Source: Antedon mediterranea (lineage: Eukaryota > Animalia > Echinodermata). Taken from it: a DNA stretch of 64,000 bases. Every line of letters starts with the position of its first letter. Position 1 is the stretch's first letter. This document shows, in pieces, positions 3,521 to 61,373 of this stretch. Both the position numbers and the translations under genes were made by a program. The stretch lies in NCBI RefSeq assembly GCF_964355755.1, contig NC_092674.1, forward strand, positions 29,574,001 through 29,638,000, in the 5' to 3' direction. The notes under the pieces were generated by a model, which was given only the letters and a program-made list of their open reading frames with translations, ran no database searches and was not told the origin of the DNA.

Positions 3521-10246
<6,726 letters not shown>

Positions 10247-14200: not shown

Positions 14201-14822
14201 AAGTTTTACCTCAGAGGGCGACGTTCGGATGCGCACGCCTGCAGATTGTTCTCCAGATTTGTTCTCATCACAGAATAGTAGCGTGTTTGCGTCGGGTAGC
14301 AAATCTGTAAAGAAAACTAGATCCCTATCAAAAGACCTAATGGAGAAGATGTTGAAATTAAAACAAACTGAAACTCACAGACACGATAGCAAAATGAAAC
14401 CTAATTCTTTACCCCAAAAAACTGATGGTATGAACAACTCCGATATCTTCACCCAACCATTATTTGATTCCCCTAATGAGATCTGCTCCATTTCCTTTGG
14501 AACCAATAAAATTCCAACAAACTTGAAAAGGAATCTATCAATACACAACTTTCCAAAAGAAGAACATAGTCTCAAAGAAGTAAAACATTCTAGCCAAAGA
14601 GAGGTTCTAGAACCTTTATCTAATCAGCTGTCTACCCCAGATCTTTTTTCACAATCATTTTGCCATAGTAAGTCTAGAATTTTTAATAACTTTGATGGAA
14701 GTCCAGATTTATTTTCTTCATGGTGTGAGACTAGTGAGGCAATTGACAATAATAGTTTGGTGAAATATTTTAAAACCGATAATTCCTTAAGCATACAGTT
14801 GTTTTCGGAGGATAGCGATTAA
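11294..14822 (+). CDS. DDIAS: DNA damage-induced apoptosis suppressor (noxin); exons 11294-11412, 12383-12544, 12866-14822
   Basis: N-terminal RPA1C-like OB fold with C4 zinc motif: ILATVLKV..LYPYCQRCYSKL..WQCNQC..NYRFRLSM..VFGQHLHSIFGSTA..LIGNQFYFG..IVACQ; long disordered last exon with repeated LPFSEDLE and SPDLF motifs; GT-AG introns in phase. Confidence 0.9.
11517..11825 (+). repeat. ~300-bp dispersed repeat containing a ~160-bp hairpin
   Basis: Arms AAATAATGAATGTTT...GGTTATATCAAC / GTTGATATAACC...AAACATTCATTATTT; near-identical inverted copy at 59587-59885. Confidence 0.85.
12630..12790. mobile_element. Tc1/pogo-type MITE
   Basis: TA|CAGTAGAACC...CTAATAAGG at the left, CCTTATTAGAGGTTCTACT..|TA at the right. 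Confidence 0.6.
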
Positions 14823-15716
14823 ATCGTTTGCCATAATTTTGAGAATAATGCTAGGCTAGTGCCAAAAGATCCAAATATTGTGCCTATCTTCCGGGGGGTG
14901 GGTGTTAGGGGATCGTAATTTTTTTGCATAAAGAACATCACAAGTGGTATGGGTTCAATCAACAGTACACTTTATTGGCCAACTGGCCCATTGTACCCAT
15001 CTGGGGTTCTACTTTAGGTTCAGAAAGGGTATACTATGAGTTTACATAGGTGAAAGCTGATGAAGTCAGAAATATTTTGAAATTTATTTATATATAATAT
15101 GGTATAGCAATGTGAAAATGCAAATAATTTGTTTTTGTGAATACATTTCAATGTTACAATATGAATTATGTGTGTTTATGAATGTACTTTGGAATAAATA
15201 AAGATGTAATAATAAATATATTTTTGTTTAATTTATTTTACAGGTACGATGATGGTATTGAACAAAATATTGCAAATTGTAAACAAAATCTATAAAAGGT
15301 TCTTAACAATTATTCTAAGTTTCAGTTCTTAAGCTCTGTAATGTGTCCATGAACACGATGATGTCATATCACTACCATATTTGGGCACATCATACTTTTT
15401 TGTCACATAAAGTTTGATAGTGTAGACAGAGCTTTACACATTTTATAAGCTAGAACTTAAAAACATGGGTTGAATGGATAAATACAAATTAATTAAATAA
15501 ATTTTAATAAAATATTACATAAATATATAGACATTACATATTTGCACAAATAATACTGAATATATAAAATTATTTGCCTTTATCAGAAACAAAACTGAAT
15601 GCAAGCAAACCTGTAATCATTGAGTTTTGAAAATAACATAGTCGAGAACGGTGTTAAACGGGATCGTACATTGATGTTATTTGTTGTATATTGTTAAGTT
15701 TATCCTATTCTTTATC

Positions 15717-16537
15717 CTCGACCCTCTTTTTAGTCCGAAAATCTATCACCATCTCTTTGGTTTTTGAAACGTTCAATTCCAAATAATTTAAATCACAATA
15801 TTCAACAAATCGTTTAATTTCTGAAATATAAAAATGAAAATCATCATCCCCCCTGATTAACCCAATGAGGAGGAGGTTTGGTCATTGGATTAAGTCAGCG
15901 GTATAGACTGAAAATAGAAATGGAGCCAACACCGTACCCTGGGGTGCGCCTGTGTTTGTAAAAATTAATTCCGAGATGGCTCCTGTACTTAACTTAACAT
16001 ATTGACTACGATTTACAAGAAAATTATATATAAAGAATATTAGTGAGCGCGGGAGTTCCATATTAAACAATTTATAAATTAGAAGGTGAGGTTGGATAGT
16101 GTTGAAGGCGGAGCTAAAGTCATAATACATGATTCTCACAGAGTGACCGAATTTAGCTACGCCTTCAAGATGAGAGTATATCTTTTCGAGTTTAAGCAAT
16201 ATAGCATCTTCAGTATTTCGTGAACTTCTGTACGCGAATTGCAGTGGGTCTAAATATTGGGAGATTAACGGCTTTAACTTATTGAGGACAATCCCTTTCA
16301 CACACTTTCATAACAAGAGGTTAAAGCAATTGGTCTGAGGTCGTTCACACATTTTACACTATTCTTTTTCGGGACAGGAACTATACATGATTTTTTCCAA
16401 ATGTCGGGCAGTAAATTATTTAAGAAACAAACATTAAAAATGGTAGTAAAGATTCCAGCTAACTGTGAGGAAGATGTTTTAATAACTTTTGATAAGATAA
16501 AGTCCGGGTCAGTTGCTTTAGAAGCTTTGTGGTAAGA
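15717..16537 (-). mobile_element. Non-LTR retrotransposon reverse transcriptase fragment (Rex1/Babar-like), frameshifted
   Basis: WKKSCIVPVPKK..NDLRPIALTS, LDPLQFAYR..TEDAI, DFSSAFNTIQPHLL, TGAPQGTVLAPFLFSVYTAD, LELNVSKTKEMVIDFR; frameshift near 16300 and no YADD motif. Confidence 0.9.
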
Positions 16538-17432
16538 ATTCTCAATAGTCAATTTGGTATATTGTATATACCTGTTTTTTATCATAAAATCTACTCCTAT
16601 TGTTGCCCCTTGACCTGGTGGAAATAAACCCTAAAAACAAACAATAATTTGAATAATTATTCATATTTATTAAAGATGTATTGTCTCCCAAACATGAAAA
16701 ATGAAGATTAATAAAATCACACTTTAAATATGCCAGTTTGCAGTTTTAATAAAGTTATTCACTTCTGTAAAAAAAAAAAAAATAATTCACTTTTAAAAAG
16801 ACAAAAGAAAAGGTTAAAGACCCCTTCCCTGCAATTTTGGACGTTTTTTGGAAAATAATACATATATACATCACTTTAAAACATTAAACCATGTCATTCC
16901 TTGTCTTAAATGTACGTTTTATGGTAAATTATGATAAAAAGTGAGAAACAATGCACTACCTAAGTAGCTCGCGGCGATCGACCTCTCGTGGACGGTCTTA
17001 GGCCTAGCCTAGCTAGACTTAGTTTTGTAGGCCTAGCTGGTAAACATCGATAACGTACGAACATCGTACGCTAGCAGGTATATAAAATATACCAAATTGG
17101 CTAGTTGAGAATTCTCAACTATTACCGCAGTACACCTGTACGACGAAGCCTACCGGCATAATGGGATAGGCTGATTTCCTTGTTAACTTAAGGGGTCATT
17201 TAATTACTGAATTATGATTGGTAGTAAAGGAAATTTACTGGAATCCTATTGGATGGTAAGGTGGTAGTAGGACCATGTCCATCCCATTGCAGTAATAAAG
17301 TTGAGCCACCTGCGACCATTACAATGTCCTACCATGTTAATGTAGGAGTGGGGAAATGTTATGCTTACTACTGTTTCTTTTAATAATTTAGTACAATTAA
17401 TAAGAATAAAGAATACACTTAACAACAGGGCC

Positions 17433-20400
17433 TATACAACAAATAACATTAATGTACGATGTAGTTTAACACTGTTCTCAACTATAGTCATTTTGGTATA
17501 CTTGAGCACATTGATAAAGAATAGGATAAACTTATCAATATACAACAAATAACATTAATGTACGATCCCGTTTAACACTGTTCTCAACTAGACTATAGCC
17601 ATTTTGGTGTACTTGAGCACAGTGATAAAGAATAGGATAAACTTAACAATATACAACAACAATGTACGATCCCGTTTAACACTGTTCTCAACTATAGTCA
17701 TTTTGGTATACTAGAGCACAGTGATAAAGAATAGGATAAACTTAACAATATAGGCCTACAACAAATAACATTAATGTACGATCCAGTTTACCACTGTTCT
17801 CAACTATAGTCATTTTGGTATACTTGAGCACAGTGATAAAGAATAGGATAAACTTAACAATATACAACAAATAACATCAATGTACGATCCCGTTTAACAC
17901 TGTTCTCAACTATAGTCATTTTGGTATACTTGAGCACAGTGATAAAGAATAGGATAAACTTAACAATATACAACAAATAACATTAATGTATGATCCCGTT
18001 TAACACTGTTCTCAACTATAATCATTTTGGTATACTTGAGCACAGTGATAAAGAATAGGATAAACTTAACAATATACAACAAATAACATTAATGTATGAT
18101 TCCGTTTAACACTGTTCTCAACTATAGTCATTTTGGTATACTTGAGCACAGTGATAAAGAATAGGATAAACTTAACAATATACAACAAATAACATCAATG
18201 TACGATCCCGTTTAACACTGTTCTCAACTATAGTCATTTTGGTATACTTGAGCACAGTGATAAAGAATAGGATAAACTTAACAATATACAACAAATAACA
18301 TCAATGTACGATCCCGTTTAACACTGTTCTCAACTATAGTCATTTTGGTATACTTGAGCACAGTGATAAAGAATAGGATAAACTTAACAATATACAACAA
18401 CAATGTACGATCCCGTTTAACACTGTTCTCAACTATAGTCATTTTGGTATACTTGAGCACAGTGATAAAGAATAGGATAAACTTAACAATATACAACAAA
18501 TAACATCAATGTACGATCCCGTTTAACACTGTTCTCAACTATAGTCATTTTGGTATACTTGAGCACAGTGATAAAGAATAGGATAAACTTAACAATATAC
18601 AACAAATAACATGATCCCGTTTAACACTGTTCTCAACTTTAGTCATTTTGGTATACTTGAGCACAGTGATAAAGAATAGGATAAACTTAACAATATACAA
18701 CAAATAACATTAATGTACGATCCCGTTTAACACTGTTCTCAACTATAGTCATTTTGGTATACTTGAGCACAGTGATAAAGAATAGGATAAACTTAACAAT
18801 ATACAACAAATAACATCAATGTACGATCCTGTTTAACACTGTTCTCAACTATAGTCATTTTGGTATACTTGAGCACAGTGATAAAGAATAGGATAAACTT
18901 AACAATATACAACAAATAACATCAATGTACGATCCCGTTTAACACTGTTCTCAACTATAGTCATTTTGGTATACTTGAGCACAGTGATAAAGAATAGGAT
19001 AAACTTAACAATATACAACAAATAACATCAATGTACGATCCCGTTTAACACTGTTCTCAACTATAGTCATTTTGGTATACTTGAGCACAGTGATAAAGAA
19101 TAGGATAAACTTAACAATATACAACAAATAACATTAATGTATGATCCCGTTTAACACTGTTCTCAACTATAGTCATTTTGGTATACTTGAGCACAGTGAT
19201 AAAGAATAGGATAAACTTAACAATATACAACAAATAACATTAATGTATGATCCCGTTTAACACTGTTCTCAACTTTAGTCATTTTGGTATACTTGAGCAC
19301 AGTGATAAAGAATAGGATAAACTTAACAATATACAACAAATAACATTAATGTACGATCCCGTTTAACACTGTTCTCAACTATAGTCATTTTGGTATACTT
19401 GAGCACAGTGATAAAGAATAGGATAAACTTAACAATATACAACAAATAACATCAATGTACGATCCTGTTTAACACTGTTCTCAACTATAGTCATTTTGGT
19501 ATACTTGAGCACAGTGATAAAGAATAGGATAAACTTAACAATATACAACAAATAACATTAATGTATGATCCCGTTTAACACTGTTCTCGACTATAGTCAT
19601 TTTGGTATACTTGAGCACAGTGATAAAGAATAGGATAAACTTAACAATATACAACAAATAACATGATCCCGTTTAACACTGTTCTCAACTATAGTCATTT
19701 TGGTATACTTGAGCACAGTGATAAAGAATAGGATAAACTTAACAATATACAACAAATAACATTAATGTATGATCCCGTTTAACACTGTTCTCGACTATAG
19801 TCATTTTGGTATACTTGAGCACAGTGATAAAGAATAGGATAAACTTAACAATATACAACAAATAACATTAATGTATGATCCCGTTTAACACTGTTCTCAA
19901 CTTTAGTCATTTTGGTATACTTGAGCACAGTGATAAAGAATAGGATAAACTTAACAATATACAACAAATAACATCAATGTACGATCCCGTTTAACACTGT
20001 TCTCAACTATAGTCATTTTGGTATAGTTGAGCACAGTGATAAAGAATAGGATAAACTTAACAATATACAACAAATAACATCAATGTACGATCCCGTTTAA
20101 CACTGTTCTCAACTATAGTCATTTTGGTATACTTGAGCACAGTGATAAAGAATAGGATAAACTTAACAATATACAACAAATAACATTAATGTACGATCCA
20201 GTTTAACACTGTTCTCAACTATAGTCATTTTGGTATACTTGAGAACAGTGATAAAGAATAGGATAAACTTAACAATATACAACAAATAACATTAATGTAC
20301 GATCCTGTTTAACACTGTTCTCAACTATAGTCATTTTGGTATACTTGAGCACAGTGATAAAGAATAGGATAAACTTAATAATATACAACAAATAACATTA

Positions 20401-20572
20401 ATGTACGATCCAGTTTACCACTGTTCTCAACTATAGTCATTTTGGTATACTTGAGCACAGTGATAAAGAATAGGATAAACTTAACAATATACAACAAATA
20501 AAATTAATGTATGATCCCGTTTAACACTGTTCTCAACTATAGTTATTTTCATATACTTGAGCACAGTGATAA
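17433..20572 (+). repeat. Tandem array of a 106-bp hairpin-containing unit (~29 copies), left arm of FB-1
   Basis: Unit TATACAACAAATAACATTAATGTACGATCCCGTTTAACACTGTTCTCAACTATAGTCATTTTGGTATACTTGAGCACAGTGATAAAGAATAGGATAAACTTAACAA; period 106 (17861 to 17967). Confidence 0.97.
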
Positions 20573-20579
20573 TATGAAA

Positions 20580-21410
20580 AACATAATAACACTATAATAT
20601 TTGTAGATGAATGACGCGGACACGTACATATATGTTCATAAGTAATTGATATAAATTGACTTTTAAAAGTGGAATTAACACAAATGATTGTAGATAAATA
20701 TGACGTGAATTGCACGTACATTATGTTGATGAGTAGTATATTTATATAAATCGACTTTGAAAAGTGAAATAACACTAATATTTGTAGATGAATATGACGT
20801 GGACACGTACATATATTGATTAGTATATTGATATAAATCGACTTTTAAAAGTAAAATTAACACTAATATTTGTAGATGAATATGACTTGGACACGATTTA
20901 CATATGTTGATGAGTATATTGATATAAATCGACTTTTAAAAGTGAAATAACACTAATATTTGTAGATGAATATGACGTGGACACGTACGGTACATAATGT
21001 TGATGAGTATATTGATATAAATCGACTTTTAAAAGTGAAATAACACTATTAGTTGTACACTATTGATCATATATGAATATGACGTGAATTGCACGTACAT
21101 ATGTTGATGAGTAGGCCTATATTGATATAATTGACTTCGAAAAGTGAAATAACATTGATTTGTAAATGAATATGACGTGGACAAGTACATTTATTGATGA
21201 GTATATTGATAAATCGACTTTTAAAAGTGAAATAACACTAATATTTATAGATGAATATGACGTGGACACGTACATATGTTGATGAGTATATTGATATAAA
21301 TCGACTTTTAAAAGTGGAATTAACACTATTGATTGTAGACGTGAATTACATGTACATTATGTTGATGAGTGTATTGATATAAATCGACTAAACGTTAAAT
21401 AACACTATCT
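20580..21410 (+). repeat. Tandem array of a ~88-bp unit (~9 copies; resumes at ~22220-22390)
   Basis: AACACTAATATTTGTAGATGAATATGACGTGGACACGTACATATGTTGATGAGTATATTGATATAAATCGACTTTTAAAAGTGAAAT repeated. Confidence 0.9.
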
Positions 21411-22394
21411 TGTACAGGTACCCTCACTTGCACTGATGAAGGACTAGTGTTGCCCGAAAACTCTGCTAACTTTTCTGGCTGTTTACTTTATCTTTCTTTC
21501 TTTCTTTCTTTATTAAAAACAAACCAATTGGCAGCAAATCTGCTGAATTGCATGGTAAGGGACAATATACATTCAAAAGACAAGTAAAGTAATAGTCATC
21601 ATTAAACAAAATTATCGCAATTACAAAATATATGTAAATGTAAACATAAAGTTAAAAAAATATAGTCTTATTGCAAGGATATAGTATATACATTATTACT
21701 TAATTCATGGATTAAAGAATAGTCCATGCTTAATTACAGTATAAAAATATAATCTTAAATTTAAGTTGCAGTATTTACATTGGTTTCTTAATTAAAGTCG
21801 ACTTCAGACAATTAAATAATTACAATTATACATTTACAAAAACATTAAATACAAAATTAAATGAGAATTAAGAATAAATTGAGTCAAATTCAAGAAATTT
21901 CTACTAGGCCTATATGTCAAATTAATTAATATCTGGTTACATTATACATTTATTTTCTTTTATTATTTAATCAATACTGTGGCAGCGAGTGAGAAACGGG
22001 ATTGCACTGTTTCCATATCTATTTGTCTTATTTTTGGGACCTGGTATGTATTACTTTTCCGTAAGGCCATATTATGCGTACTCATATTTCTCGGAAACCA
22101 CTCAGCATATCTATACGCATTAGCACATTTCGTTTTGATTTAGCTTTTCGCTTCTTTTTTTGTATCTCCATTGAGACCACAGCATTGTTATTATTTAAGT
22201 ATTTTGCCTTTGTTATTAAAGGTGAAATAACACTAATGACTGTAGATGATATGACATTTATGTTGATGTATATATTTTTGTATAATATAATATGCACACG
22301 TACATACGTTGATAGGTATTGATATAAATAGATTTTTTAAAGTACGGTAATAGACACTTTATTTGTAGATGAATACGACATGGACAAGTTGCAA

Positions 22395-25240
22395 TAAGTT
22401 TATCCTATTCTTTATCACTGTGCTCAAGTATACCAAAATGGCTATAGTTGAGAACAGTGTTAAACGGGATCGTACATTAATGTTATTTGTTGTATATTGT
22501 TAAGTTTATCCTATTCTTTATCACTGTGCTCAAGTATACCAAAATGACTATAGTTGAGAACAGTGTAAACGGGATCATACATTAATGTTATTTGTTGTAT
22601 ATTGTTAAGTTTATCCTATTCTTTATCACTGTGCTCAAGTATACCAAAATGACTATAGTCGAGAACAGTGTTAAACGGGATCATACATTAATGTTATTTG
22701 TTGTATATTATTAAGTTTATCCTATTCTTTATCACTGTGCTCAACTATACCAAAATGACTATAGTTGAGAACAGTGTTAAACGGGATCGTACATTGATGT
22801 TATTTGTTGTATATTGTTAAGTTTATCCTATTCTTTATCACTGTGCTCAAGTATACCAAAATGACTATAGTTGAGAACAGTGTTAAACGGGATCGTACAT
22901 TGATGTTATTTGTTGTATATTGTTAAGTTTATCCTATTCTTTATCACTGTGCTCAACTATACCAAAATGACTATAGGTGAGAACAGTGTTAAACGGGATC
23001 GTACATTGATGTTATTTGTTGTATATTGTTAAGTTTATCCTATTCTTTATCAATGTGCTCAAGTATACCAAAATGACTATAGTTGAGAACAGTGTTAAAC
23101 GGGATCATACATTAATGTTATTTGTTGTATATTGTTAAGTTTATCCTATTCTTTATCACTGTGCTCAAGTATACCAAAATGACTATAGTTGAGAACAGTG
23201 TAAACGGGATCATACATTAATGTTATTTGTTGTATATTGTTAAGTTTATCCTATTCTTTATCACTGTGCTCAAGTATACCAAAATGACTATAGTTGAGAA
23301 CAGTGTTAAACGGGATCATACATTAATGTTATTTGTTGTATATTATTAAGTTTATCCTATTCTTTATCACTGTGCTCAAGTATACCAAAATGACTATAGT
23401 TGAGAACAGTGTTAAACGGGATCGTACATTAATGTTATTTGTTGTATATTGTTAAGTTTATCCTATTCTTTATCACTGTGCTCAAGTATACCAAAATGAC
23501 TATAGTTAGAACAGTGTAAACGGGATCATACATTAATGTTATTTGTTGTATATTGTTAAGTTTATCCTATTCTTTATCACTGTGCTCAAGTATACCAAAA
23601 TGATTATAGTCGAGAACAGTGTTAAACGGGATCATACATTAATGTTATTTGTTGTATATTGTTAAGTTTATCCTATTCTTTATCACTGTGCTCAAGTATA
23701 CCAAAATGACTATAGTTTAGAACAGGGTTAAACTGGATCGTACATTAATGTTATTTGTTGTATATTGTTAAGTTTATCCTATTCTTTATCACTGTGCTCA
23801 AGTATACCAAAATGATTATAGTCGAGAACAGTGTTAAACGGGATCATACATTAATGTTATTTGTTGTATATTGTTAAGTTTATCCTATTCTTTATCACTG
23901 TGCTCAAGTATACCAAAATGACTATAGTCGAGAACAGTGTTAAACGGGATCGTACATTAATGTTATTTGTTGTATATTGTTAAGTTTATCCTATACTTTA
24001 TCACTGTGCTCAAGTATACCAAAATGACTATAGTTGAGAACAGTGTTAAACGGGATCATACATTAATTTTATTTGTTGTATATTATTAAGTTTATCCTAT
24101 TCTTTATCACTGTGCTCAAGTATACCAAAATGACTATAGTCGAGAACAGTGTTAAACGGGATCGTACATTAATGCTATTTGTTGTATATTATTAAGTTTA
24201 TCCTATTCTTTATCACTGTGCTCAAGTATACCAAAATGACTATAGTTGAGAACAGTGTTAAACGGGATCGTACATTAATGCTATTTGTTGTATATTATTA
24301 AGTTTATCCTATTCTTTATCACTGTGCTCAAGTATACCAAAATGACTATAGTTGAGAACAGTGTTAAACGGGATAGTACATTAATGTTATTTGTTGTATA
24401 TTATTAAGTTTATCCTATTCTTTATCACTGACGTGCTCAAGTATACCAACATGACTATAGTCGAGAACAGTGTTAAACGGGATCATACCTTAATGCTATT
24501 TGTTGTATTATTAAGTTTATCCTATTCTTTATCACTGTGCTTAAGTATACCAAAATGACTATAGTTGAGAACAGTGTTAAACTGGATGGTACATTAATGT
24601 TATTTGTTCTATATTATTAAGTTTATCCTATTCTTTATCACTGTGCTCAAGTATACCAAAATGACTATAGTTGAGAACAGTGTTAAACTGGATCGTACAT
24701 TAATGCTATTTGTTGTATATTATTAAGTTTATCCTATTCTTTATCACTGTGCTCAAGTATACCAAAATGACTATAGTTGAGAACAGTGTTAAACTACATC
24801 GTACATTAATGTTTTGTTGTATATTGTTAAGTTTATCCTATTCTTTATCACTGTGCTCAAGTATACCAAAATGACTATAGTTGAGAATAGTGTTAAACGG
24901 GATCATACATTAATGTTATTTGTTGTATATTGTTAAGTTTATCCTATTCTTTATCACTGTTCTCAAGTATACCAAAATGACTATAGTTGAGAACATGGGT
25001 TAAACTGGATCGTACATTAATGTTTTTTGTTGTATATTGTTAAGTTTATCCTATTCTTTATCACTGTGCTCAAGTATACCAAAATTTCTATAGTTGAGAA
25101 CAGTGTTAAACTGGATCGTACATTAATGCTATTTGTTGTATATTGTTAAGTTTATCCTATTCTTTATCACTGTGCTCAAGTATACTAAAATGACTATAGT
25201 TGAGAACAGTGGTAAACTGGATCGTACATTAATTTTATCC
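22395..25240 (-). repeat. Inverted tandem array of the same 106-bp unit (~27 copies), right arm of FB-1
   Basis: Reverse complement of the 17433-20572 unit. Confidence 0.97.
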
Positions 25241-26091
25241 TTTGCTTTACTGTGCTTTGATTTGATAAGCAAGTTTGGTTGCCCCGCCCCCATATGCTAC
25301 CTACTAAATTAGGATTCCCTAGCTTTTCTATAAAAATTGAAGTACCCACAATGCACGTTATACGGAAGTCATAGTCTTGTAAAATACAGACACAATAGTT
25401 TTTATGGTATTGTTTTCATTTAAATATCACTAAGATTGTCTTAAACTACAAACAACTAAAATTAGTGAAGGTATGCAAGTGTTTCTAAATGTTTACTACT
25501 GATAGTATTAATACAATTTGGATTATATCATTTTCCAGAAAGGTAGAAAAAAACATAAAATAGTTGAGAATTCTCAACTAGCCAGGATGGTATAGGAAAT
25601 ATAGCTCACGCTAGCTATATACCTAGCCTCTAGCCTGACGTTGTATAGTTGCTGCATTAATTGTCTTTCTATTTTTGCCAGACTCCGGAGCTATATATCC
25701 AATACCAAATTGGCGAGTAAATCATGTTTTACTTTAAATTAAATTTATACGCTCTTCCACAAGGTCAATTGTTAGTTATACATACAGACTATATTAAAAC
25801 AATGATTTTGAACACGTAGGGCATTTCTTTAAATTCTTTCCTATTGTCGTTTTGTGGTAATTTACAGCTTTTTATATGTTTAACAAACGTACATAATCAA
25901 TTGCGTCTGCATCATGCTAGACTACAACTTCCGGTAGTGACGTAATCAGCATATTTTTGGTAATAAAACTTTTTCACTAAGCTAGGGAATCTTCTGATAT
26001 CAATATTCATTAGACCGTACTTTAGTTAGCCAATCAAAATAAACGTATAAACAATTTTGCGGCAATGTTACATGTTGTTGAGGTAAAATAT

Positions 26092-29000
26092 ACTGTGTTT
26101 TACAATAACCAATTTGGTTAGAGTAAAACACAATGATAAAGAATAGGAAACATTTAATAATATGATAAATGACATTTACGTAGCAATTTATCACTGTGTT
26201 TTACTATAACCAATTTGGTTAGAGTAAAACACAATGATAAAGAATAGGAAACGTTTAATAATATGATAAATGTCATTACATAGCAATTTATCATTGTGTT
26301 TTACTATAACCAATTTGGTTAGAGTAAAACACAATGATATAGAATAGGCAACATTTAATAATATGATAAATGACATTTACATAGCAATTTAGCACTGTGT
26401 TTTACTATAACCAATTTGGTTAGAGTAAAACACAATGATATAGAATAGGAAACATTTAATAATTTGATAAATGACATTTACATAGCAATTTTAGCACTGT
26501 GTTTTACTATAACCAATTTGGTTAGAGTAAAACACAATGATAAAGAATAGGAAACATTTAATAATAATGATTATTTACATAGCAATTTAGCACTGTGTTT
26601 TACTATAACCAATTTGGTTATAGTAAAACACAATGATAAAGAATAGGAAACATTTAATAATATGATATATGACATTCACATAGCAATTTATCACTGTGTT
26701 TTACTATAACCAATTTGGTTAAAGTAAAACACAATGATATAGAATAGGAAACATTTAATAATAATGATTATTTACATAGCAATTTAGCACTGTGTTTTAC
26801 TATAACCAATTTGGTTATAGTAAAACACAATGATAAAGAATAGGAAACATTTAATAATATGATATATGACATTCACATAGCAATTTATCACTGTGTTTTA
26901 CTATAACCAATTTGGTTAAAGTAAAACACAATGATATAGAATAGGAAACATTTAACAATTTGATAAATGACATTTACGTAGCAATTTATCACTGTGTTTT
27001 ACTATAACCAATTTGGTTAGAGTAAAACACAATGATAAAGAATAGGAAACGTTTAATAATATGATAAATGTCATTACATAGCAATTTATCACTGTGTTTT
27101 ACTATAACCAATTTGGTTAGAGTAAAACACAATGATATAGAATAGGCAACATTTAATAATATGATAAATGACATTTACATAGCAATTTAGCACTGTGTTT
27201 TACTATAACCAATTTGGTTAGAGTAAAACACAATGATATAGAATAGGAAACATTTAATAATTTGATAAATGACATTTACTTAGCAATTTTAGCACTGTGT
27301 TTTACTATAACCAATTTGGTTAGAGTAAAACACAATGATAAAGAATAGGAAACATTTAATAATAATGATTATTTACATAGCAATTTAGCACTGTGTTTTA
27401 CTATAACCAATTTGGTTAGAGTAAAACACAATGATAAAGAATAGGAAACATTTAATAATAATGATTATTTACATAGCAATTTAGCACTGTGTTTTACTAT
27501 AACCAATTTGGTTATAGTAAAACACAATGATAAAGAATAGGAAACATTTAATAATATGATATATGACATTCACATAGCAATTTATCACTGTGTTTTACTA
27601 TAACCAATTTGGTTAAAGTAAAACACAATGATATAGAATAGGAAACATTTAATAATATGATAAATGACATTTACATAGCAATTTAGCACTGTGTTTTACT
27701 ATAAACAATTTGGTTTAAGTAAAGCAGAATGATAAAGAATAGGAATTTAATAATATGATATATGACATTTACATAGCAATTTAGCACTGTGTTTTACTAT
27801 AACCAATTTGGTTAGAGTAAAACACAATGATAAAGAATAGGAAACATTTAATAATATGATATATGACATTCACATAGCAATTTAGCACTGTGTTTTACTA
27901 TAACCAATTTGGTTAGAGTAAAACACAATGATATAGAATAGGAAACATTTAATAATTTGATAAATGACATTTACATAGCAATTTAGCACTGTGTTTTACT
28001 ATAACCAATTTGGTTAAAGTAAAACACAATGATAAAGAATAGGAAACATTTAATAATATGATAAATGACATTTACATAGCAATTTAGCACTGTGTTTTAC
28101 TATAACCAATTTGGTTAAAGTAAAACACAATGATAAAGAATAGGAAACATTTAATAATATGATAAATGACATTTACATAGCAATTTAGCACTGTGTTTTA
28201 CTATAACCAATTTGGTTAAAGTAAAGCAGAATGATAAAGAATAGGAATTTAATAATATGATATATGACATTTACATAGCAATTTAGCACTGTGTTTTACT
28301 ATAACCAATTTGGTTATGGTAAAACACAATGATATAGAATAGGAAACATTTAATAATATTGATTATTTACATAGCAATTTAGCACTGTGTTTTACTATAA
28401 CCAATTTGGTTATAGTAAAACACAATGATATAGAATAGGAAACATTTAATAATATGATAAATGACATTTACATAGCAATTTATCACTGTGTTTTACTATA
28501 ACCAATTTGGTTATGGTAAAGCACAATGATATAGAATAGGAAACATTTAATAATATGATAAATGACATTTACATAGCAATTTATCACTGTGTTTTACTAT
28601 AACCAATTTGGTTATGGTAAAGCACAATGATATAGAATAGGAAACATTTAATAATATGATAAATGACATTTACATAGCAATTTATCACTGTGTTTTACTA
28701 TAACCAATTTGGTTAAAGTAAAACATAATGATAAAGAATAGGAAACATTTAATAATTTGATAAATGACATTTACATAGCAATTTAGCACTGTGTTTTACT
28801 ATAATCAATTTGGTTATGGTAAAGCACAATGATATAGAATAGGAAACATTTAATAATATGATAAATGACTTACATAGCAATTTAGCACTGTGTTTTACTA
28901 TAAACAATTTGGTTAAAGTAAAACACAATGATAAAGAATATGAAACATTTAATAATTTGATAAATGACATTCACATAGCAATTTAGCACTGTGTTTTACT

Positions 29001-30125
29001 ATAACCAATTTGGTTATGGTAAAGCACAATGATATAGAATAGGAAACATTTAATAATATGATAAATGACATTTACATAGCAATTTAGCACTGTGTTTTAC
29101 TATAACCAATTCGGTTATGGTAAAGCACAATGATATAGAATAGGAAACATTTAATAATAATGATTATTTACATAGCAATTTATCACTGTGTTTTACTATA
29201 ACCAATTTGATTAGAGTAAAACACAATGATATAGTATAGGAACATTTAATAACATGATAAATGACATTTACATAGCAATTTATCACTGTGTTTTACTATA
29301 ACCAATTTGGTTATGGTAAAGCACAATGATATAGAATAGGAAACATTTAATAATATGATAAATGACATTTACATAGCAATTTATCACTGTGTTTTACTAT
29401 AACCAATTTGGTTAAAGTAAAACATAATGATAAAGAATAGGAAACATTTAATAATTTGATAAATGACATTTACATAGCAATTTAGCACTGTGTTTTACTA
29501 TAATCAATTTGGTTATGGTAAAGCACAATGATATAGAATAGGAAACATTTAATAATATGATAAATGACTTACATAGCAATTTAGCACTGTGTTTTACTAT
29601 AAACAATTTGGTTAAAGTAAAACACAATGATAAAGAATATGAAACATTTAATAATTTGATAAATGACATTCACATAGCAATTTAGCACTGTGTTTTACTA
29701 TAACCAATTTGGTTATGGTAAAGCACAATGATATAGAATAGGAAACATTTAATAATATGATAAATGACATTTACATAGCAATTTAGCACTGTGTTTTACT
29801 ATAACCAATTCGGTTATGGTAAAGCACAATGATATAGAATAGGAAACATTTAATAATAATGATTATTTACATAGCAATTTATCACTGTGTTTTACTATAA
29901 CCAATTTGATTAGAGTAAAACACAATGATATAGTATAGGAACATTTAATAACATGATAAATGACATTCACATAGAAATTTAGCACTGTGTTTTACTATAA
30001 CCAATTTGATTAGAGTAAAGCACAATGATAAAGAATAGGAAACATTTAATAATATGATAAATGACATTTACATAGTAATTTATCACTGTGTTTTACTATA
30101 ACCAATTTGGTTAGAGTAAAACATT
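26092..30125 (+). repeat. Tandem array of a ~101-bp hairpin-containing unit (~40 copies), left arm of FB-2
   Basis: Unit CACTGTGTTTTACTATAACCAATTTGGTTAGAGTAAAACACAATGATAAAGAATAGGAAACATTTAATAATATGATAAATGACATTTACATAGCAATTTAG. Confidence 0.97.
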
Positions 30126-30359
30126 TTAACTATGATAAATGATATTTAGCACTGTGCTGGATAAAGTAAAACACAAATAAAGAATAGGAAACATATAATA
30201 ATGTGATACATTTACAAACAAATTTAGTATTGTGTTTTACTATAGCCAATTTGGTTACAGTAAAACACAATGATAATGAAACATTTATTATATGATGTTA
30301 TTTACATAGCAAAATATTATATTAAACATATCTTATTATCTAAACGTTATGATAAAGAA

Positions 30360-31610
30360 TAGGATACATATAATGTAATAATATAATAAATACAAGTTAC
30401 ATAGTTTATCATCTTGTTTTACAGAACCAATTTGGTGACACAGTTAAACACAGTGATAAAGAATAGATACTGTTTTAGGTTATATAACCCTAACCCTAGT
30501 TTGAAGCGACATAATAAATTCATCGCGAAAAAGTACGTATCGTATTCAGAAACTTTTGAAATTTGTTAGATATGTTTAATAGGTTCTTACGTCTATAAAA
30601 CAAACAAAAAATATAAATTTCACGAAAAATTCGTGATTTTAATAATTTGCATTTCTAAAAATGTACACTTATGAAATACCATACATTTTCCAACACATTT
30701 TTACTTCATTGATGATTCCCAGAAATCAAATTAAAACAAATTATGATATTTCTTTTACATTATAGATGTAAGAACCTATATTGAACATGTACCAAATTTC
30801 AAACGTTTTTTAAGACGATACGTATTTTTATCGATGAATTAAGTATGTGATCGCTTCAAACTAGGGTTAGGGTTAAATAACCTAACAGTTCCATTCTTTA
30901 ACACTGTGTTTAACTTTTAACCAAATTGGTTTTAGTACAACACAAGGATAAACTATGTACATTTTATTTTTCATATTACATTATAGGATACATATAATGT
31001 AATAATAATAAATACAAGTTACATAGTTTATCATCTTGTTTTACAGAACCAATTTGGTTACCCAGTTAAACACAGTGATAAAGAATAGACACTGTTTTAG
31101 GTTATATAACTCTAACCCTAGTTTGAAACGATCACATACTTAATTCATCGCGAAAAAATACGTATCGTATTCAGAAACATTTGAAATTTGGTAAATATGT
31201 TCAATAGGTTCTTACGTCTATAAAACAAACAAAAAATAAAAGTTTCAAGACAAATTCGTGATTTTAATAATTTGCATTTCTAAACATTTACACTTATGAA
31301 AGACAATACATTTCCAACACATTTTTACTTCATTGATGATTCCCAGAAATCAAAATAAAACTATTAGGATATTTCTTTTGCATTATAGATGTAAGAACCT
31401 ATATTGGACATATCTACCAAATATCAAACGTTTTTCAAGACGATACGTATTTTTAGCGATGAATATTAAATATGTGATCGCTTCAAACTAGGGTTAGGGT
31501 TAAATAAACTAAAACAGTTATATTCTTTATCACTCACTGTGTTTAACTTTTAACCAAAATGGTTATAGTAAAACACAATGATAAACTTATATGTAAATTT
31601 TATTTTTCAT
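30360..31610. repeat. Two tandem ~625-bp hairpin modules (~230-bp arms) inside FB-2; partial third at ~31860-32210
   Basis: 30360-30984 repeats at 30985-31610; each has TAACCCTAACCCTAGTTTGAAGCGA.. on the left arm and ..TCGCTTCAAACTAGGGTTAGGGTTA on the right. Confidence 0.8.
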
Positions 31611-32842
31611 AACATAAAATGTTTGATATTCTTTATAATATTTAATATTATATTTTAGGCCTACTATTAATGACGTATAAATGCACACTACATCTGAAAT
31701 AACTTTCTACTTCATTGGCGATTCTTACCAAAAAAAAAGAACTAATTTTGTTATGTATATAGAGCAACCTATTATAACATGTCTTGTATGATTTTTATCT
31801 CGTTTCAATGACATTTTATACTACAATTCAAATGAAAAAGCATCACAAAATACGTCTGGTATTCAAAAAGTTTCTAAACTCGGTACACAGAAAAAACGAA
31901 TATGTTGAAAATGTATGGTCTTTCATAAGTGTGAATTTTTAGAAATGCAAATAATGGAAGTCATCGATTTGTCTTGAAATTTATAATTTGTTTCGTCTTA
32001 TTGAATATATCTATACAAAATGTCAAACGTTTCTGAATACGATACGTTTTTTTTCTCGATGAATTTATAATGTCGCTTCAAACTAGAGGGTAGGGTAGTA
32101 ACCTAACAAGTATCTATTCTTTATCACTATGTTTAACTGTGTAACCATATTGGTTCTAATAAAAAACAATGATAAACTATGTAAATTGTATGTTTCATAT
32201 ATTACATTTTTGCCAAAAAAAATTATTGGGAATGTCAAATTTCTTTTTCATGACATATATCTACAAATTTCAGAAGCTTTTGAATACGAGTATTTTACGC
32301 AATGTTTTTTTATCCTCATTTTAATATTTTGGTAATGTAATTCACATGCATAAAGTTTTGTATCCAAAAATTGTTTATTCTTGGGTAGAAATGAGGAAAT
32401 AAATAGTATTCCTGTATAATATAATAATCACTAATAAAGTATTTAAAAAAGTGTTGTGTAAACGAACGTTTTTTACACTTCGAATTTTCTGTTACATTAT
32501 GTTTGAATTGAAGCTACAGATATTGAATCATGGACCTATAAATTAGTAATTTATAGGTCCATGATTGAACATATCGTCACTCACCACACATTTTTTGTTT
32601 TGTATTTCGAAAGTATTTATTCTAAAGAACAATTGATGCAAACATCAACTGCGTATCTTATTTCATTAATTAATTATATTAATTATAATTTGGCGATTAT
32701 TCGTCACACGAAGCGTCGAATATCGATTCGTCTCGTCATGGGAAGAAAACGTGCATTGCGCACACTGTTTACGCGTCTCAACAATAAACGGCGAATATGC
32801 GATTCGTCACTAATTATGGAACGCCGTTTTACACAAGTTTTT

Positions 32843-33689
32843 GGCGATGATAAAAATTGCGTCGATGATGAAATTGCGTCGATGAAAATTGCATCGACGC
32901 AATGTAGATTGCGTCGACGCAATTTACATTGCGTCGATGAAAATTGCATCGATGAAAATTGCGTCGATGAAAATTGCGTCGATGAAAACTGCATCGATGA
33001 AAATTGCGTCGATGAAAACTGCATCGATGAAAATTGATGTGATGAATTTAATTGATTATGAAAATTCCAAATGGTTTTAATTCAATCAATGATGAAAATG
33101 ACTACTAGTAAAGTAAATGATGATGTTAATAATGATGTTAATAATGTTATTATGTTGCTAAAAATTGACGGTTTCTGAATATTTTGATATGATAAACATG
33201 TTTACCGCTTGCGCTAGCGCGCGTTATAGACAAGCGCACAGTGAGCGCGCACTAAAACAATGTTGAAATATATGCACTGATTAACATTTTAGTGATTTAT
33301 TGTCAACACATTTTAGCAATGGATCCATTATTGTCCTTTCGGACACATTATATCTTCTAGCTAATTGCTTCCGTTAATCCACCAGTTCAGTAGGCCTACA
33401 TAAAATTCAGATGTCCAGCATCCATGACATCATATTCAAATCATACCGGCAGGGAGATCGCAATTTTCATCGATGCAGTTTTCATCGATGCAGTTTTCAT
33501 CGACGCAATTTTCATCGACGCAATTTTCATCACATTAACGCAATTTTCATTACATCGACGCAATTTTCATCGACGCAATGTTCATCACATCGACTTATAT
33601 TTTCATTACATCAATACTATATTCATCGACACAATTTCATCACATCGACGCAATTTTCATTGCATCATCGACGCGATTTTATCATCGCC
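32843..33689. mobile_element. Small foldback element with inverted arrays of a 15-bp unit (ATGAAAATTGCGTCG)
   Basis: Starts GGCGATGATAAAA, ends TTTTATCATCGCC; 15-mer array at 32860-33040 and its reverse complement at 33460-33680; no TSD resolved. Confidence 0.75.
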
Positions 33690-34069
33690 TAAACTGGCAT
33701 TCCATACTAATTGCGTGTGATCTGATTGGTGTATTATAAATAAATTCATCGCAATGAATTTTTCAGTAGATGTAATGAGACAGAGTTCAGTAGATGTAAT
33801 GACAGTTAATTTAATTGTTCTGCTCTTTTTGTACAAATCTATACTACTTTATATTATGGATTTTGTAGTACTGTTAAAATTATTAAATCTCTGGAAGTGT
33901 GTTTTACGAGTATGTCCGCAAATTTATGCGTTTACGGTTTTAAAATGTGAGTTTTAAATAGCGAACATGATCTTGTTAGGTGCACTACGCACGCAGTATT
34001 CCAAAATGTCTTACTAATTTGGAGAAAATCATATTGTATCATATCATATTATATCCATTCTTTAAATTC

Positions 34070-35315
34070 ATATTCTTTATCCAAAACTAAATTGGTATAG
34101 TAAAACACAGTGCTAGCAATTTATCATATTATTAAATGTTTCATATTCTTTATCATTGTGTTTTACTCTAATCAAATTGGTATAGTAAAACACAGTGCTA
34201 AATTGCTATGTGAATGTCATTTATCATATTTTTAAATGTTTCCTATTCTTTATCATTGTGTTTAACTCTAACCAAATTGGTTATAGTAAAACACAGTGCT
34301 AAATTGCTATGTAAATGTTATATATCATATTATTAAATTCCTATTCTTTATCATTGTGTTTTACTCTAACCAAATTGGTTATAGTAAAACACAGTGATAA
34401 ATTGCTATGTAAATGTAATTTATCATATTATTAAATGTTTCCTATTCTTTATCATTGTGTTTTACTCTAACCAAATTGGTTATAGTAAAACACAGTGATA
34501 AATTGCTATGTAAATGTAATTTATCATGTTATTAAATGTTTCCTATTCTTTATCGTTGAGTTTTACTCTAATCAAATTGGTTATAGTAAAACACAGTGCT
34601 AAATTGCTATGTAAATGTTATATATCATATTATTAAATGTTTCCTATTCTTTATCATTGTGTTTTACTCTAATCTGATTGGTTATAGTAAAACACAGTGC
34701 TAAATTGCTATGTGAATGTCATTTATCATGTTATTAAATGTTTCCTATTCTTTATCATTGTGCTTTACTCTAACCAAATTGGTTATAGTAAAACACAGTG
34801 CTAAATTGCTATGTAAATGTCATTTATCATGTTATTAAATGTTTCTTATTCTTTATCATTTTGTTTTACTCTAACCAAATTGGTTATAGTAAAACACAGT
34901 GCTAAATTGCTATGTAAATGTAATTTATCATATTATTAAATGTTTCCTATTCTTTATCATTGTGCTTTACTCTAACCAAATTGGTTATAGTAAAACACAG
35001 TGCTAAATTGCTATGTAAATGTCATTTATCATGTTATTAAATGTTTCTTATTCTTTATCATTGTGTTTTACTCTAACCAAATTGGTTATAGTAAAACACA
35101 GTGCTAAATTGCTATGTAAATGTAATTTATCATATTATTAAATGTTTCCTATTCTTTATCATTGTGTTTTACTCTAACCAAATTGGTTATAATTTATTTA
35201 ATTTCATTTCAAAAGACATTTACCTAAATTTCTATTTAAATGTCATTTATCAAATTATTAAATGTTTCCTATTATTTATCTGGTTATATAGTAAAACACT
35301 GTGCTAAATTGCTAT
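34070..35315 (-). repeat. Inverted array of the ~101-bp unit (~12 copies), right arm of FB-2
   Basis: Reverse complement of the 26092-30125 unit. Confidence 0.95.
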
Positions 35316-36513
35316 TGTATTAAGGACGAGTTCCGAGAAGATGTATTCAAAGCTACAACCAATCAGAACAGTGTTAATCAATATAGTCCATGGCTACAGC
35401 CAATCAGAAACGTCCAAATCGCAATAACCCCTAGGCTAATAGAAATTATTGGTCCGAGTAGCCTTTTCAACCAGACGTTGCGAGGTTTAAAAAGTAAAAC
35501 ATGATTTACTCGCCAGTTTGGTATAGTTTATATACCTGGACTCCGTTGATACAAATTGGGGAAAACCCGGTATTTTCGTTGAAAAGTTAGGAGTCTTCCA
35601 TTTGTTTTGGCTTCACGATCGATCGAAAAGTGGGCGAATTACAGGTGAAAAACAAAAATATCAATCCGCGCGCAATGCATTTTGGGATTTATAGCGGGCC
35701 GCTATAATTATTAGAATCGATTTATTTTTCACATTTTTAACCGTTTAAAGACGAAAAAAGTTATCGCAATAGGACCATATAGTATTATTTTTACATTACA
35801 TATAGTTTGTGATCTTAAATTAGATCTAAAAAACGTAGGGAATGGGGCTTTAATTTTAACCCAAAAACCAGACAGACAATTTAAGCATTTTTTTGTTTTA
35901 AATTACATTTTTTCAGGTAAATATTTTATTTGATCCAGTTTTAATTCAAATGAATAATTATTACATGACATTAACATGACATATTCAAAAACAAAATTTG
36001 AAAATTATGAAAATTATAATGACAATATATCTTTAATATTAACAACATACAGCACTGCATATTTATTAATTTTAGTTTATTTTTTCTAGTTTGTACGTAC
36101 ATATTAATGCAGTTTGTAGTGTCACAGTGTCAAAGGTGAAGAAGCTCAAATTCATTGGAAAGGGATGCATACTAAAATGTTCCATTGTGAAACTGAACCT
36201 TGCACACAGTTTATTGTGTTGTTTTTAGCGTTCATATTTTATTGGGCAGATAATCTGAACGTAAGTACAAATTATGAATTACAAACAATATGTATTTGCA
36301 TGAAATTCTACTGAACATTGAAAAAAAAAATGTACAGTCTTATTAGAGATCTTTGGGAGTGGAGCTTGTGGGTTTTAAGACATGATTAAACAGTTTTATG
36401 GATTTCTTTGTTCTGTTTATGGGAGGTTTCAATTGGTACGATCGATATAATAGGCCTACTTTGATAGAATTATTTAAAAAACTACATTACATTATATTTT
36501 GCAGTATTTACTG

Positions 36514-46314: not shown

Positions 46315-46490
46315 CCTTCACTTGCACTGATGAAGGGCTAGTGTTGCCCGAAAGCTCTGCTAACTTTTCTGGCTGTTTACTTTATCGTTTTGATTTAGCT
46401 TTTCGCTTTTTATTTTTGTATCTCCATTGAGATCCAGCCACTGATACCCACAGCATTGTCATTTTTTTCAGTAATTTGCCTTTGGATATA
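46315..46490 (+). mobile_element. Penelope-like element fragment with a minimal type I hammerhead ribozyme motif (46322-46363), between (TA)n tracts
   Basis: TTGCA-CTGATGA-A-GGGC-TAGTGTT-GCCC-GAAA-GCTC-TGCTAA; a second copy is split between 21423-21492 and 22130-22212. Confidence 0.65.

Positions 46491-48741: not shown

Positions 48742-61373
<12,632 letters not shown>

What the first reader, a model, noticed from the sequence alone, without database searches (positions are those of the whole stretch)
17075..35538. Two giant foldback transposons whose hairpin-repeat arrays carry the same family-specific motif as their own terminal repeats
Seen: FB-1 (17075-25607) and FB-2 (25688-35538) share a layout of 7-bp TSD, asymmetric ends (CAGGTATATA.. 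at one end, GAGCTATAT.. at the other), and kilobase arrays of ~100-bp units in inverted orientation on the two arms. The units are homologous (CACTGT-hairpin-ACA(G/A)TG then ATAAAGAATAGGA) but differ in the hairpin core. FB-1 has TTCTCAACTA in its unit and the palindrome TAGTTGAGAATTCTCAACTA in its TIR; FB-2 has TGTTTTACT in its unit and AGTAAATCATGTTTTACT in its TIR. TIR and array motifs therefore changed together. Established: 7-bp TSDs with long internally repetitive inverted arms occur in Galileo-type P-superfamily elements, but the CAG.../...CTC ends are not ones I can assign to a known family. Inference: the arrays are multimerised, family-specific transposase binding sites, a self-recognition code that keeps the families separate and also seeds satellite DNA. 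Neither element encodes a protein.
Basis: partly seen in the sequence, partly recalled or inferred. Interest (0 to 1): 0.85.

Follow-up and report, generated by a model that had tools for sequence, protein, structure and literature searches.

The report
Sister foldback transposons with private passwords
Two gene-less jumping elements of 8.5 and 9.9 kb sit side by side, each carrying about 50 repeats that share a short signature with its own ends and not with its neighbour's; the signature is likely the docking site of each family's own cutting enzyme, a design already shown in fly and mosquito transposons, though the enzyme family here could not be named.

Summary
Real. FB-1 (17075-25607) and FB-2 (25688-35538) are young, multicopy, non-coding foldback DNA transposons. 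An empty copy of the small element they landed in lies in the same window (55180-55809) and carries each target once, which proves both boundaries and the 7-bp TSD; public contigs show other flanks at the same termini and the same polar CAGG/GAGC ends. The families share the outer 27 bp (25/27, 22/27) but differ in a palindrome at positions 28-47 (10/20). The same four base changes separate their 9-bp half-sites in the TIR and in the array unit, so TIR and array changed together. Best reading (0.6): the units are TIR-derived, multimerised transposase sites with family-biased specificity. That mechanism is already demonstrated for Galileo (P) and Muta1 (Mutator); satellite seeding is described for Tetris and Rehavkus, and this scan has noted similar elements on other DNA. 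Not shown: binding, strict separation of the families (they inserted 73 bp apart), free satellites. Superfamily unresolved (P 0.35, hAT 0.3, Mutator 0.25): no genome, transposase or Repbase/Dfam was available. New members of a known kind, with unusual ends.

The parts
17068..17074 (+). FB-1 left TSD (7 bp)
   Evidence: single in empty paralog
17075..25607 (.). FB-1, non-autonomous foldback transposon, 8533 bp
   Evidence: majority contigs start exactly at 17075
17075..17123 (+). FB-1 CAGG-type TIR: shared outer 27 bp plus family palindrome at 17102-17121 (two 9-bp half-sites AGTTGAGAA)
17433..20572 (+). FB-1 left array, 29.8 x 106 bp hairpin units
20573..22394 (.). FB-1 interior: second decayed ~89-bp array (20585-21407) and a captured repeat fragment (21421-21495, 22130-22212) also found at 46315-46484; no coding signal
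22395..25238 (-). FB-1 right array, 26.9 x 106 bp, inverted
25559..25607 (-). FB-1 GAGC-type TIR, family palindrome at 25561-25580
   Evidence: GAGC end confirmed in majority contigs
25608..25614 (+). FB-1 right TSD
25623..25636 (+). Private 7-bp tandem duplication in the 80-bp host spacer; possible footprint of a third, excised 7-bp-TSD element (or slippage)
   Evidence: absent from empty paralog and from 98.4-99.96% of host-element contig depth in 4 of 4 runs
25681..25687 (+). FB-2 left TSD (7 bp)
25688..35538 (.). FB-2, non-autonomous foldback transposon, 9851 bp, opposite polarity to FB-1
   Evidence: independent flank at 25688 in run X2
25688..25735 (+). FB-2 GAGC-type TIR, family palindrome at 25716-25733 (half-sites AGTAAATCA / AGTAAAACA)
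26092..30123 (+). FB-2 left array, 40.4 x 101 bp; holds an exact 714-bp higher-order duplication (28555, offset 699)
30124..34117 (.). FB-2 interior: nested inverted ~620-bp segments with five decayed units (half-site variant AGTTAAACA) and an unrelated nested element
32815..33706 (.). Nested 892-bp foldback element of another kind (TATGG...CCATA ends, 15-bp inverted arrays, CTAAT on both sides)
34118..35191 (-). FB-2 right array, 10.7 x 101 bp, inverted
35491..35538 (-). FB-2 CAGG-type TIR, family palindrome at 35493-35510
35539..35545 (+). FB-2 right TSD
16818..35849 (.). Host element (~630 bp when empty, TTAA on both sides, very high copy) split into three pieces by FB-1 and FB-2
55180..55809 (-). 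Empty paralog of the host element (97-98% identical over the two long flanks), carrying each target once
15628..16574 (-). Truncated third copy of the FB-1 family: 40 bp of CAGG TIR (16535-16574) inside a Rab GTPase exon, a reverse-transcriptase fragment, and one FB-1-type unit piece (15628-15716) joined across a ~2-kb deletion

Best explanation
FB-1 and FB-2 are two sister families of non-coding foldback DNA transposons, likely moved by cut-and-paste enzymes encoded elsewhere, whose ~100-bp array units are likely multiplied copies of the enzyme's binding site taken from the element's own end. Shown: boundaries, 7-bp TSD, polar ends, many copies about 1% apart or less, a shared outer 27 bp, and a family-specific 9-bp half-site present twice in each TIR and twice in each unit. 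Inferred: the catalytic part of the transposase reads the shared, polar outer 27 bp; its N-terminal DNA-binding domain reads the inverted half-sites at positions 29-46; each unit repeats TIR positions ~14-37 (with 2 bp more spacing) plus a second, weaker half-site, so some 100 extra sites per element raise enzyme loading and end pairing. When the binding domain changed specificity, four bases changed in TIR and unit, and exchange between units and between arms spread the new site through the arrays. Specificity is probably a bias, not a wall. The enzyme most likely belongs to the P/hAT/Mutator group (P 0.35, hAT 0.3, Mutator 0.25, other 0.1; these odds are judgement).
For: Empty site and TSDs. 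Majority contigs begin exactly at the CAGG and GAGC termini and other flanks are seen at 17075 (X9) and 25688 (X2). High-depth contigs link each TIR palindrome to its own subterminal sequence up to or near the array (records 24, 26, 28, 32, records 17, 19, 25), so the pairing is family-wide. Between families the outer 27 bp are 25/27 and 22/27 identical, positions 28-47 only 10/20; within an element positions 28-47 are 20/20. The same four substitutions (half-site positions 4, 5, 7, 8) separate the families in the TIR inner half and unit half A; 15 of 16 diagnostic letters fit in each family over four site classes; under a simple independence model the four parallel changes have probability 4e-5 to 3e-3 (post hoc). 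The shared tract is only 9-10 bp and the neighbours differ between TIR and unit, short for gene conversion. FB-1 TIR 11-37 aligns to its unit, 0 of 1000 shuffles. The third copy has family-1 TIR and family-1 unit. Precedent: Galileo THAP binds a subfamily-specific site outside the conserved ~40-bp end and again in the tandem repeats (PMC3688188); Muta1 binding and excision rise with repeat number (PMC5499845); Tetris unit derives from its TIR (PMC4079207).
Against: No transposase found, no binding data. Only two families compared. Half-site A is not significantly more conserved inside arrays than the rest of the unit (variable columns 3/9 vs 30/97, p=1.0; 1/9 vs 29/92, p=0.27); in FB-1 the least variable block is the family-shared CAGTG...AGGA. 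For FB-2 the TIR-to-unit match alone is weak (217 of 5000 shuffles; 173 and 66 of 1000). Half-site B is degenerate (46 of 52 FB-1 units carry a two-mismatch form; 14 of 43 FB-2 units deviate). The two families inserted 73 bp apart, against strict independence.
Confidence: 0.6

Rival explanations
1. One transposase (or two that cross-react) moves both families through the shared outer 27 bp and the shared unit blocks; the 9-bp motif only tunes affinity, and arrays of a resident element would attract incoming elements of either family.
For: Outer ends 25/27 and 22/27 identical, enough for one superfamily by Repbase's own rule (PMC4455052). Two families 73 bp apart, a private 7-bp duplication between them and a third relic 500 bp away; chance of one FB-1/FB-2 pair within 100 bp is about 0.0003-0.01 for assumed 30-120 copies in 300-600 Mb (assumed numbers). 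Similar contig depth and age for both families. Galileo G THAP cross-reacts weakly with K.
Against: Does not explain why the same four bases changed in TIR and unit; 0 of 3 copies in the window mix family marks; a window was picked because it looked odd, so the clustering odds are biased.
Confidence: 0.2
2. The co-variation is mechanical: hairpin template switching and short conversion between the foldback arms copied the TIR core into the unit (or back), and the arrays are selfish, neutral expansions or act only through DNA structure.
For: All four site classes lie in hairpins (unit cores -6.8 to -14.9 kcal/mol); arms are fully homogenised (left-right identity equals within-arm: 0.951 vs 0.954/0.953 and 0.924 vs 0.924/0.946); no excess conservation of the motif within arrays.
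Against: The shared tract is 9-10 bp with different neighbours and a fixed 2-bp spacing difference in both families; binding to such repeats is demonstrated in two superfamilies.
Confidence: 0.15
3. Satellite DNA or an assembly artefact that only mimics transposons.
For: Kilobase tandem arrays, with one exact 714-bp duplication; no public contig spans a whole element.
Against: Empty paralog with single targets, two perfect TSDs, independent flanks at the same termini, 18-26 distinct unit variants per long arm. Exact array lengths could still be off.
Confidence: 0.03

Closest known systems
Galileo (P superfamily, Drosophila): PMC3688188 (passages and section 2.6 read), PMC4168063 (passages), PMC3573991 (passages)
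   Same: 7-bp TSD; long internally repetitive inverted arms; non-coding two-TIR copies up to 9 kb; short terminal stretch conserved between subfamilies; subfamily-specific transposase site repeated in the tandem repeats.
   Different: Galileo targets follow palindromic GTANTAC; the two proven targets here match 2/6 and 1/6 fixed letters (my count). Ends here are polar (C.. vs G..); the family site is a palindrome at 28-47, not a single site at 63-80; 11-40 repeats per arm instead of 2-9; the true TIR is only ~48 bp and is parted from the array by ~300 bp that differ between ends.
Tm1, Mutator/Phantom foldback of Meloidogyne: PMC3169594 (passages)
   Same: Asymmetric terminal motifs, one end starting with C and the other (read inward) with G; composite arms with variable repeat number; empty-site proof.
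   Different: TSD 8-10 bp, mostly 9; 14-bp units, 1-9 per arm.
Muta1 (Aedes MULE, type 2 foldback): PMC5499845 (passages)
   Same: Palindromic motif at the end plus subterminal repeats that raise transposase binding and excision.
   Different: 8-9-bp TSD, symmetric 145-bp TIRs, 12-bp units.
Tetris (D. virilis; PMC4079207, passages) and Rehavkus/TfSat elements (Tribolium; PMC12581902, passages)
   Same: Kilobase inverted arrays of long units inside a transposon; unit derived from the TIR; concerted evolution between related elements.
   Different: TSD 8-10 bp in Tetris; escape into long satellite arrays shown there, not here.
hAT families with 7-bp TSD (existence stated in PMC4455052, passage; the name hATw for such a lineage is recalled)
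   Same: 7-bp TSD; CAG-type start and unequal ends with repeated subterminal sites are common in hAT (recalled).
   Different: Could not be compared: no hATw end sequences were found in the library.

Membership tests
TIR cut-and-paste DNA transposon, non-autonomous foldback type | Inverted termini flanked by a TSD made on insertion | tested here: met
   empty paralog
TIR cut-and-paste DNA transposon, non-autonomous foldback type | Dispersed copies with the same termini and different flanks | tested here: met
   contigs start at the termini; one other flank each at 17075 and 25688; third copy at 16574
TIR cut-and-paste DNA transposon, non-autonomous foldback type | Long inverted arms built of tandem repeats, no transposase gene | tested here: met
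Galileo (P superfamily) | 7-bp TSD | tested here: met
   2 of 2 complete elements
Galileo (P superfamily) | Palindromic target consensus GTANTAC | tested here: not met
   ACGCTAG and GACTCCG against PMC4168063; only two proven sites
P superfamily | Both ends begin CA (recalled consensus) | tested here: not met
   one end CAGG, the other GAGC in both families and in majority contigs; the consensus itself is recalled, source papers not held
P superfamily | THAP plus P-type DDE transposase in an element with these ends | not testable with these tools
   no genome; no remnant inside; collection scans empty or chance
hAT (7-bp TSD lineage) | 7-bp TSD allowed | tested here: met
   passage
hAT (7-bp TSD lineage) | Terminal alignment to a known family (positions 1-11, one mismatch) and hAT transposase | not testable with these tools
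   Repbase/Dfam not available; searches found no end sequences
Mutator (Phantom/Tm1/Rehavkus) | TSD 8-10 bp | tested here: not met
   7 bp here against PMC5499845 and PMC3169594; a wider 7-12 bp range for Phantom is recalled, paper not held
Mutator (Phantom/Tm1/Rehavkus) | Foldback arms with asymmetric outermost motifs | tested here: met
Mutator (Phantom/Tm1/Rehavkus) | MULE transposase | not testable with these tools
Helitron/Helentron (hairpins, asymmetric ends) | No TSD on insertion (recalled) | tested here: not met
   7-bp TSD proven by empty site
Transposon-derived satellite DNA | Long arrays freed from the element ends | tested here: inconclusive
   none in the window; unit-to-terminus depth (about 55-200 in X9, 115-285 in X8, overlapping contigs summed) against 57 units in FB-1; depth is no copy number

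The most novel reading that the evidence does not exclude
FB-1 and FB-2 represent an undescribed lineage of cut-and-paste transposons with 7-bp TSDs and polar CAGG/GAGC ends, caught just after a specificity switch: a four-base rewrite of the transposase recognition word swept through the ends and about a hundred array sites per element and split one family into two, while the arrays also tether incoming elements and make insertion hot spots. A genome-wide family series would then give a natural DNA-word-to-protein code for a transposase DNA-binding domain.
Probability: 0.2. Interest if true: 0.65.

Novelty: new member of a known kind. Interest (0 to 1): 0.38.

Why it matters
How one transposon family becomes two is usually inferred from drift across the whole element. 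Here the shared and the family-specific parts of the end are cleanly separated and the same four-base change is repeated in TIR and array, so the pair gives a sharp binding test once the enzyme is found. Elements of 8-10 kb with kilobase inverted arms are also likely sources of deletions and inversions; the third copy sits at a 2-kb deletion that broke a duplicated Rab gene. The design itself is known from Galileo, Muta1, Tetris and Rehavkus, which limits the surprise.

Tried and rejected
No whole genome is held, so genome-wide pairing of ends, TSD tables, further families and an autonomous copy could not be examined. Scans for the shared CAGG end found 0 matches in viral contigs and 0 in metagenome contigs; a scan for the shared unit block gave 4 loci with one match each, none with arrays or ends, judged chance. 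My first window pattern was mis-spaced and found 0. Rfam: 29 weak matches, all microRNA-type hairpins far below gathering scores; no hammerhead hit on the captured fragment at 21421. Pfam on 69 internal frames: no transposase; one above-cutoff Pentapeptide hit comes from the 15-bp repeat of the nested element. Excess conservation of the motif inside arrays: not found. Run X1 (3 million letters) covered the unit and not the terminus; lack of cover in so small a run is no evidence of free satellite. Low-depth contigs that keep an FB-2 TIR or an FB-1 subterminal stretch and then run on unlike the window (records 14, 17, 23, 27) may be further subfamilies or autonomous ends, but their letters were not shown. 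An 8-bp TSD and a single composite element were rejected. The CACTGTG/CACAGTG likeness of the unit stem to the V(D)J heptamer (recalled) was set aside: RAG-type elements make 5-bp TSDs (recalled) and the motif is not at the ends. Literature: the end 10-mers occur in 169 papers, 25 listed, none on transposons by title; 602 papers matched echinoderm terms, 20 listed, none containing 'foldback'; these searches do not replace Repbase or Dfam. Three key reviews were not held; a DOI recalled for Kolobok gave an unrelated paper, so that label is recalled only. No supplements were read; TIR tables in Galileo, Tm1 and Repbase supplements could bear on the superfamily call.


Full report
Observation. 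Reading 16800-36000 and extracting the junctions confirms both elements at the stated coordinates. FB-1 (8533 bp) runs CAGG...GCTC between two copies of ACGCTAG; FB-2 (9851 bp) runs GAGC...CCTG between two copies of GACTCCG, so the two lie in opposite polarity with their GAGC ends facing across 80 bp. FB-1 alone would also allow an 8-bp TSD; FB-2 allows only 7. Tandem Repeats Finder gives 29.8 and 26.9 units of 106 bp in FB-1 and 40.4 and 10.7 units of 101 bp in FB-2, inverted between arms. The true TIR is about 48 bp (38/47 and 41/47 identity between the ends of one element); beyond it the ends are unrelated for about 300 bp before the arrays start.

Proof of insertion. A self-comparison showed that the left flank of FB-1, the spacer and the right flank of FB-2 are three consecutive pieces of one ~630-bp repeat that is intact at 55180-55809 on the minus strand. 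The intact copy carries each target once (the FB-1 target differs there in its last base). The host repeat has TTAA on both sides at both loci, which fits a Kolobok-type non-autonomous element (recalled label). Contigs of public runs confirm the empty joints at 25608 and 25687 and show the host to be far more abundant than either family. The targets were 73 bp apart. Between them this copy has a 7-bp tandem duplication (25623-25636) lacking in the paralog and in 98.4-99.96% of host depth in 4 of 4 runs: either the footprint of a third 7-bp-TSD element that left, or slippage in a CTAG-rich tract; I put the footprint at about 0.4.

Families. In two runs the majority contig begins exactly at 17075, contigs of the other end begin with the GAGC terminus, and other flanks are seen at 17075 (X9) and 25688 (X2). 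The polar ends are therefore a family trait. Subterminal depth is about 1750 and 1970 (X8) and 1285 and 1250 (X9) for FB-1 and FB-2, against 11-70 for the rarest variant contigs; depth is no copy number, but tens of copies each is the natural reading. Most of the listed majority contigs differ from the window copies at about 1% of positions or less (1/217, 2/239, 1/317, 2/368; 3/120 at the CAGG tip), so both families are young. Three of the runs are one sample and may be the source of the window, so this is not independent support for the assembly. A third, truncated FB-1-family copy lies at 15628-16574: 40 bp of CAGG TIR inside a Rab GTPase exon, a reverse-transcriptase fragment (Pfam RVT_1), and part of an FB-1 unit joined to DNA 2 kb further along the paralogous gene. 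Earlier scan notes call this genome a feather star; I did not test that.

Co-variation. Between families the outer 27 bp are 25/27 (CAGG ends) and 22/27 (GAGC ends) identical, positions 28-47 only 10/20, while within an element those positions are 20/20. Each TIR core is two inverted 9-bp half-sites; each unit holds two more in the opposite arrangement. FB-1: AGTTGAGAA in all 4 TIR halves and in half A of 43 of 52 parsed units; half B is ACTTGAGCA in 46 of 52. FB-2: AGTAAATCA (outer) and AGTAAAACA (inner) in the TIRs, AGTAAAACA in half A of 43 of 43 parsed units and half B of 29 of 43 (the pattern parsed 52 of about 57 and 43 of about 51 units). The TIR inner half and unit half A differ between families by the same four substitutions; outside the half-sites the units differ at 23% of sites, so four identical parallel changes have a probability of 4e-5 to 3e-3 under independence (post hoc, two families only). 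The unit also repeats the TIR's shared ACCAAA-type box: FB-1 TIR positions 11-37 align to the unit with a 2-bp gap (0 of 1000 shuffles; GAGC end 6 of 1000), FB-2 shows the same layout without significance (66 and 173 of 1000), cross-family 240-569 of 1000. The unit is thus best seen as a TIR derivative older than the family split. Against a binding role: half-site A is not significantly better conserved within arrays than other columns.

Mechanism. Shown: insertion with 7-bp TSD, polarity, copy number, motif linkage, no coding capacity. Inferred: a transposase made elsewhere cuts at the shared outer ends; its DNA-binding domain reads the half-sites; the arrays add about 100 sites per element; exchange among units and between arms (left-right identity equals within-arm identity; one exact 714-bp duplication) spreads any new site. 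The shared tract is 9-10 bp with different neighbours in TIR and unit, which favours selection by a protein over conversion. Whether specificity isolates the families is open: their ends would count as one superfamily by Repbase's rule, and their closeness suggests a shared hot spot (assumed copy numbers and genome size; biased by window choice).

Comparison. In Galileo the THAP domain footprints a site outside the ~40 bp conserved between families, the site recurs in the tandem repeats and binds there, and cross-binding is weak (K) or absent (N) (PMC3688188, passages and section 2.6). Galileo makes 7-bp TSDs with consensus GTANTAC and has 9-kb two-TIR copies (PMC4168063, passages; PMC3573991, passages). 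Muta1 binding and excision rise with repeat number (PMC5499845, passages). Tetris units derive from the TIR and expand (PMC4079207, passages), as do Rehavkus units (PMC12581902, passages). Tm1 has asymmetric C-/G-starting ends but 9-bp TSDs (PMC3169594, passages). hAT families with 7-bp TSD exist (PMC4455052, passage). hAT, MuDR, P, Kolobok and Dada share the C/DxxH signature (PMC10045372, passages). PMC3698922 and PMC12905397 (passages) added nothing decisive. So the elements work like Galileo or Muta1; membership in Galileo fails on target consensus and end symmetry, in typical Mutator on TSD length, and cannot be tested for hAT. No paper naming these ends turned up, but Repbase and Dfam were not searchable.

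Verdict. The scan has noted a satellite-filled foldback element elsewhere in this genome and TIR-motif arrays in another genome; by sequence nothing like FB-1 or FB-2 was on file. New members of a known kind, with an unusual combination of 7-bp TSD and polar ends and an unusually clean four-base switch. Interest 0.38.

Noticed in passing
window 14912-46026: Tandem duplication (85% identity) of a Rab GTPase gene (minus strand, Rab30-like by recall) with a Mab-21/cGAS-like gene nested in its first intron on the plus strand. Losses look reciprocal: the left copy keeps an intact 709-aa Mab-21 frame (36478-38607) but its Rab is broken at exon 2; the right copy keeps the Rab exons but its Mab-21 frame is split (43070-44398, 44340-45068). 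FB-1 and FB-2 lie in intron 1 of the broken Rab copy.
   Followed up: partly
window 32815-33706: 892-bp foldback element nested in FB-2, TATGG...CCATA ends, inverted 15-bp arrays, CTAAT on both sides; TA..TA ends resemble IS3EU, whose TSD is usually 6 bp, here 5.
   Followed up: partly
window 30348-32211: Inside FB-2, ~620-bp segments in alternating orientation, each tied to a decayed unit with half-site AGTTAAACA (intermediate between the two families) and to a short telomere-like TAACCC pair; possibly an older state of the unit.
   Followed up: partly
window 21421-22212 and 46305-46490: Short repeat with a CTGATGA...GAAA motif like the minimal hammerhead of Penelope-type retroelements (recalled), interrupted by ~635 bp inside FB-1; Rfam gave no hammerhead match.
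   Followed up: partly
window 17077-17093 and 35520-35536: The outer part of the CAGG end is itself a small hairpin in both families, the GAGC end is not.
   Followed up: no
window 6599-6751, 15337-15454, 39822-39932, 47150-47846, 48981-49130, 51513-51663, 53531-53675, 54252-54406: About ten copies of a ~145-bp palindromic MITE, some nested.
   Followed up: no
window 11508-11828 and 59584-59894: Two copies (94%) of a repeat containing a ~160-bp palindrome.
   Followed up: no
window 49900-57930 (-), 5745-6410 (-), 12840-14822 (+): Exons of a NIDO/AMOP-domain gene, a tryptophan 2,3-dioxygenase exon, and a 660-aa open frame with no Pfam match.
   Followed up: no
records 14, 17, 23, 27: Contigs that keep an FB-2 TIR or FB-1 subterminal stretch and continue with 280-530 unlike letters: candidates for further subfamilies or an autonomous element.
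   Followed up: no
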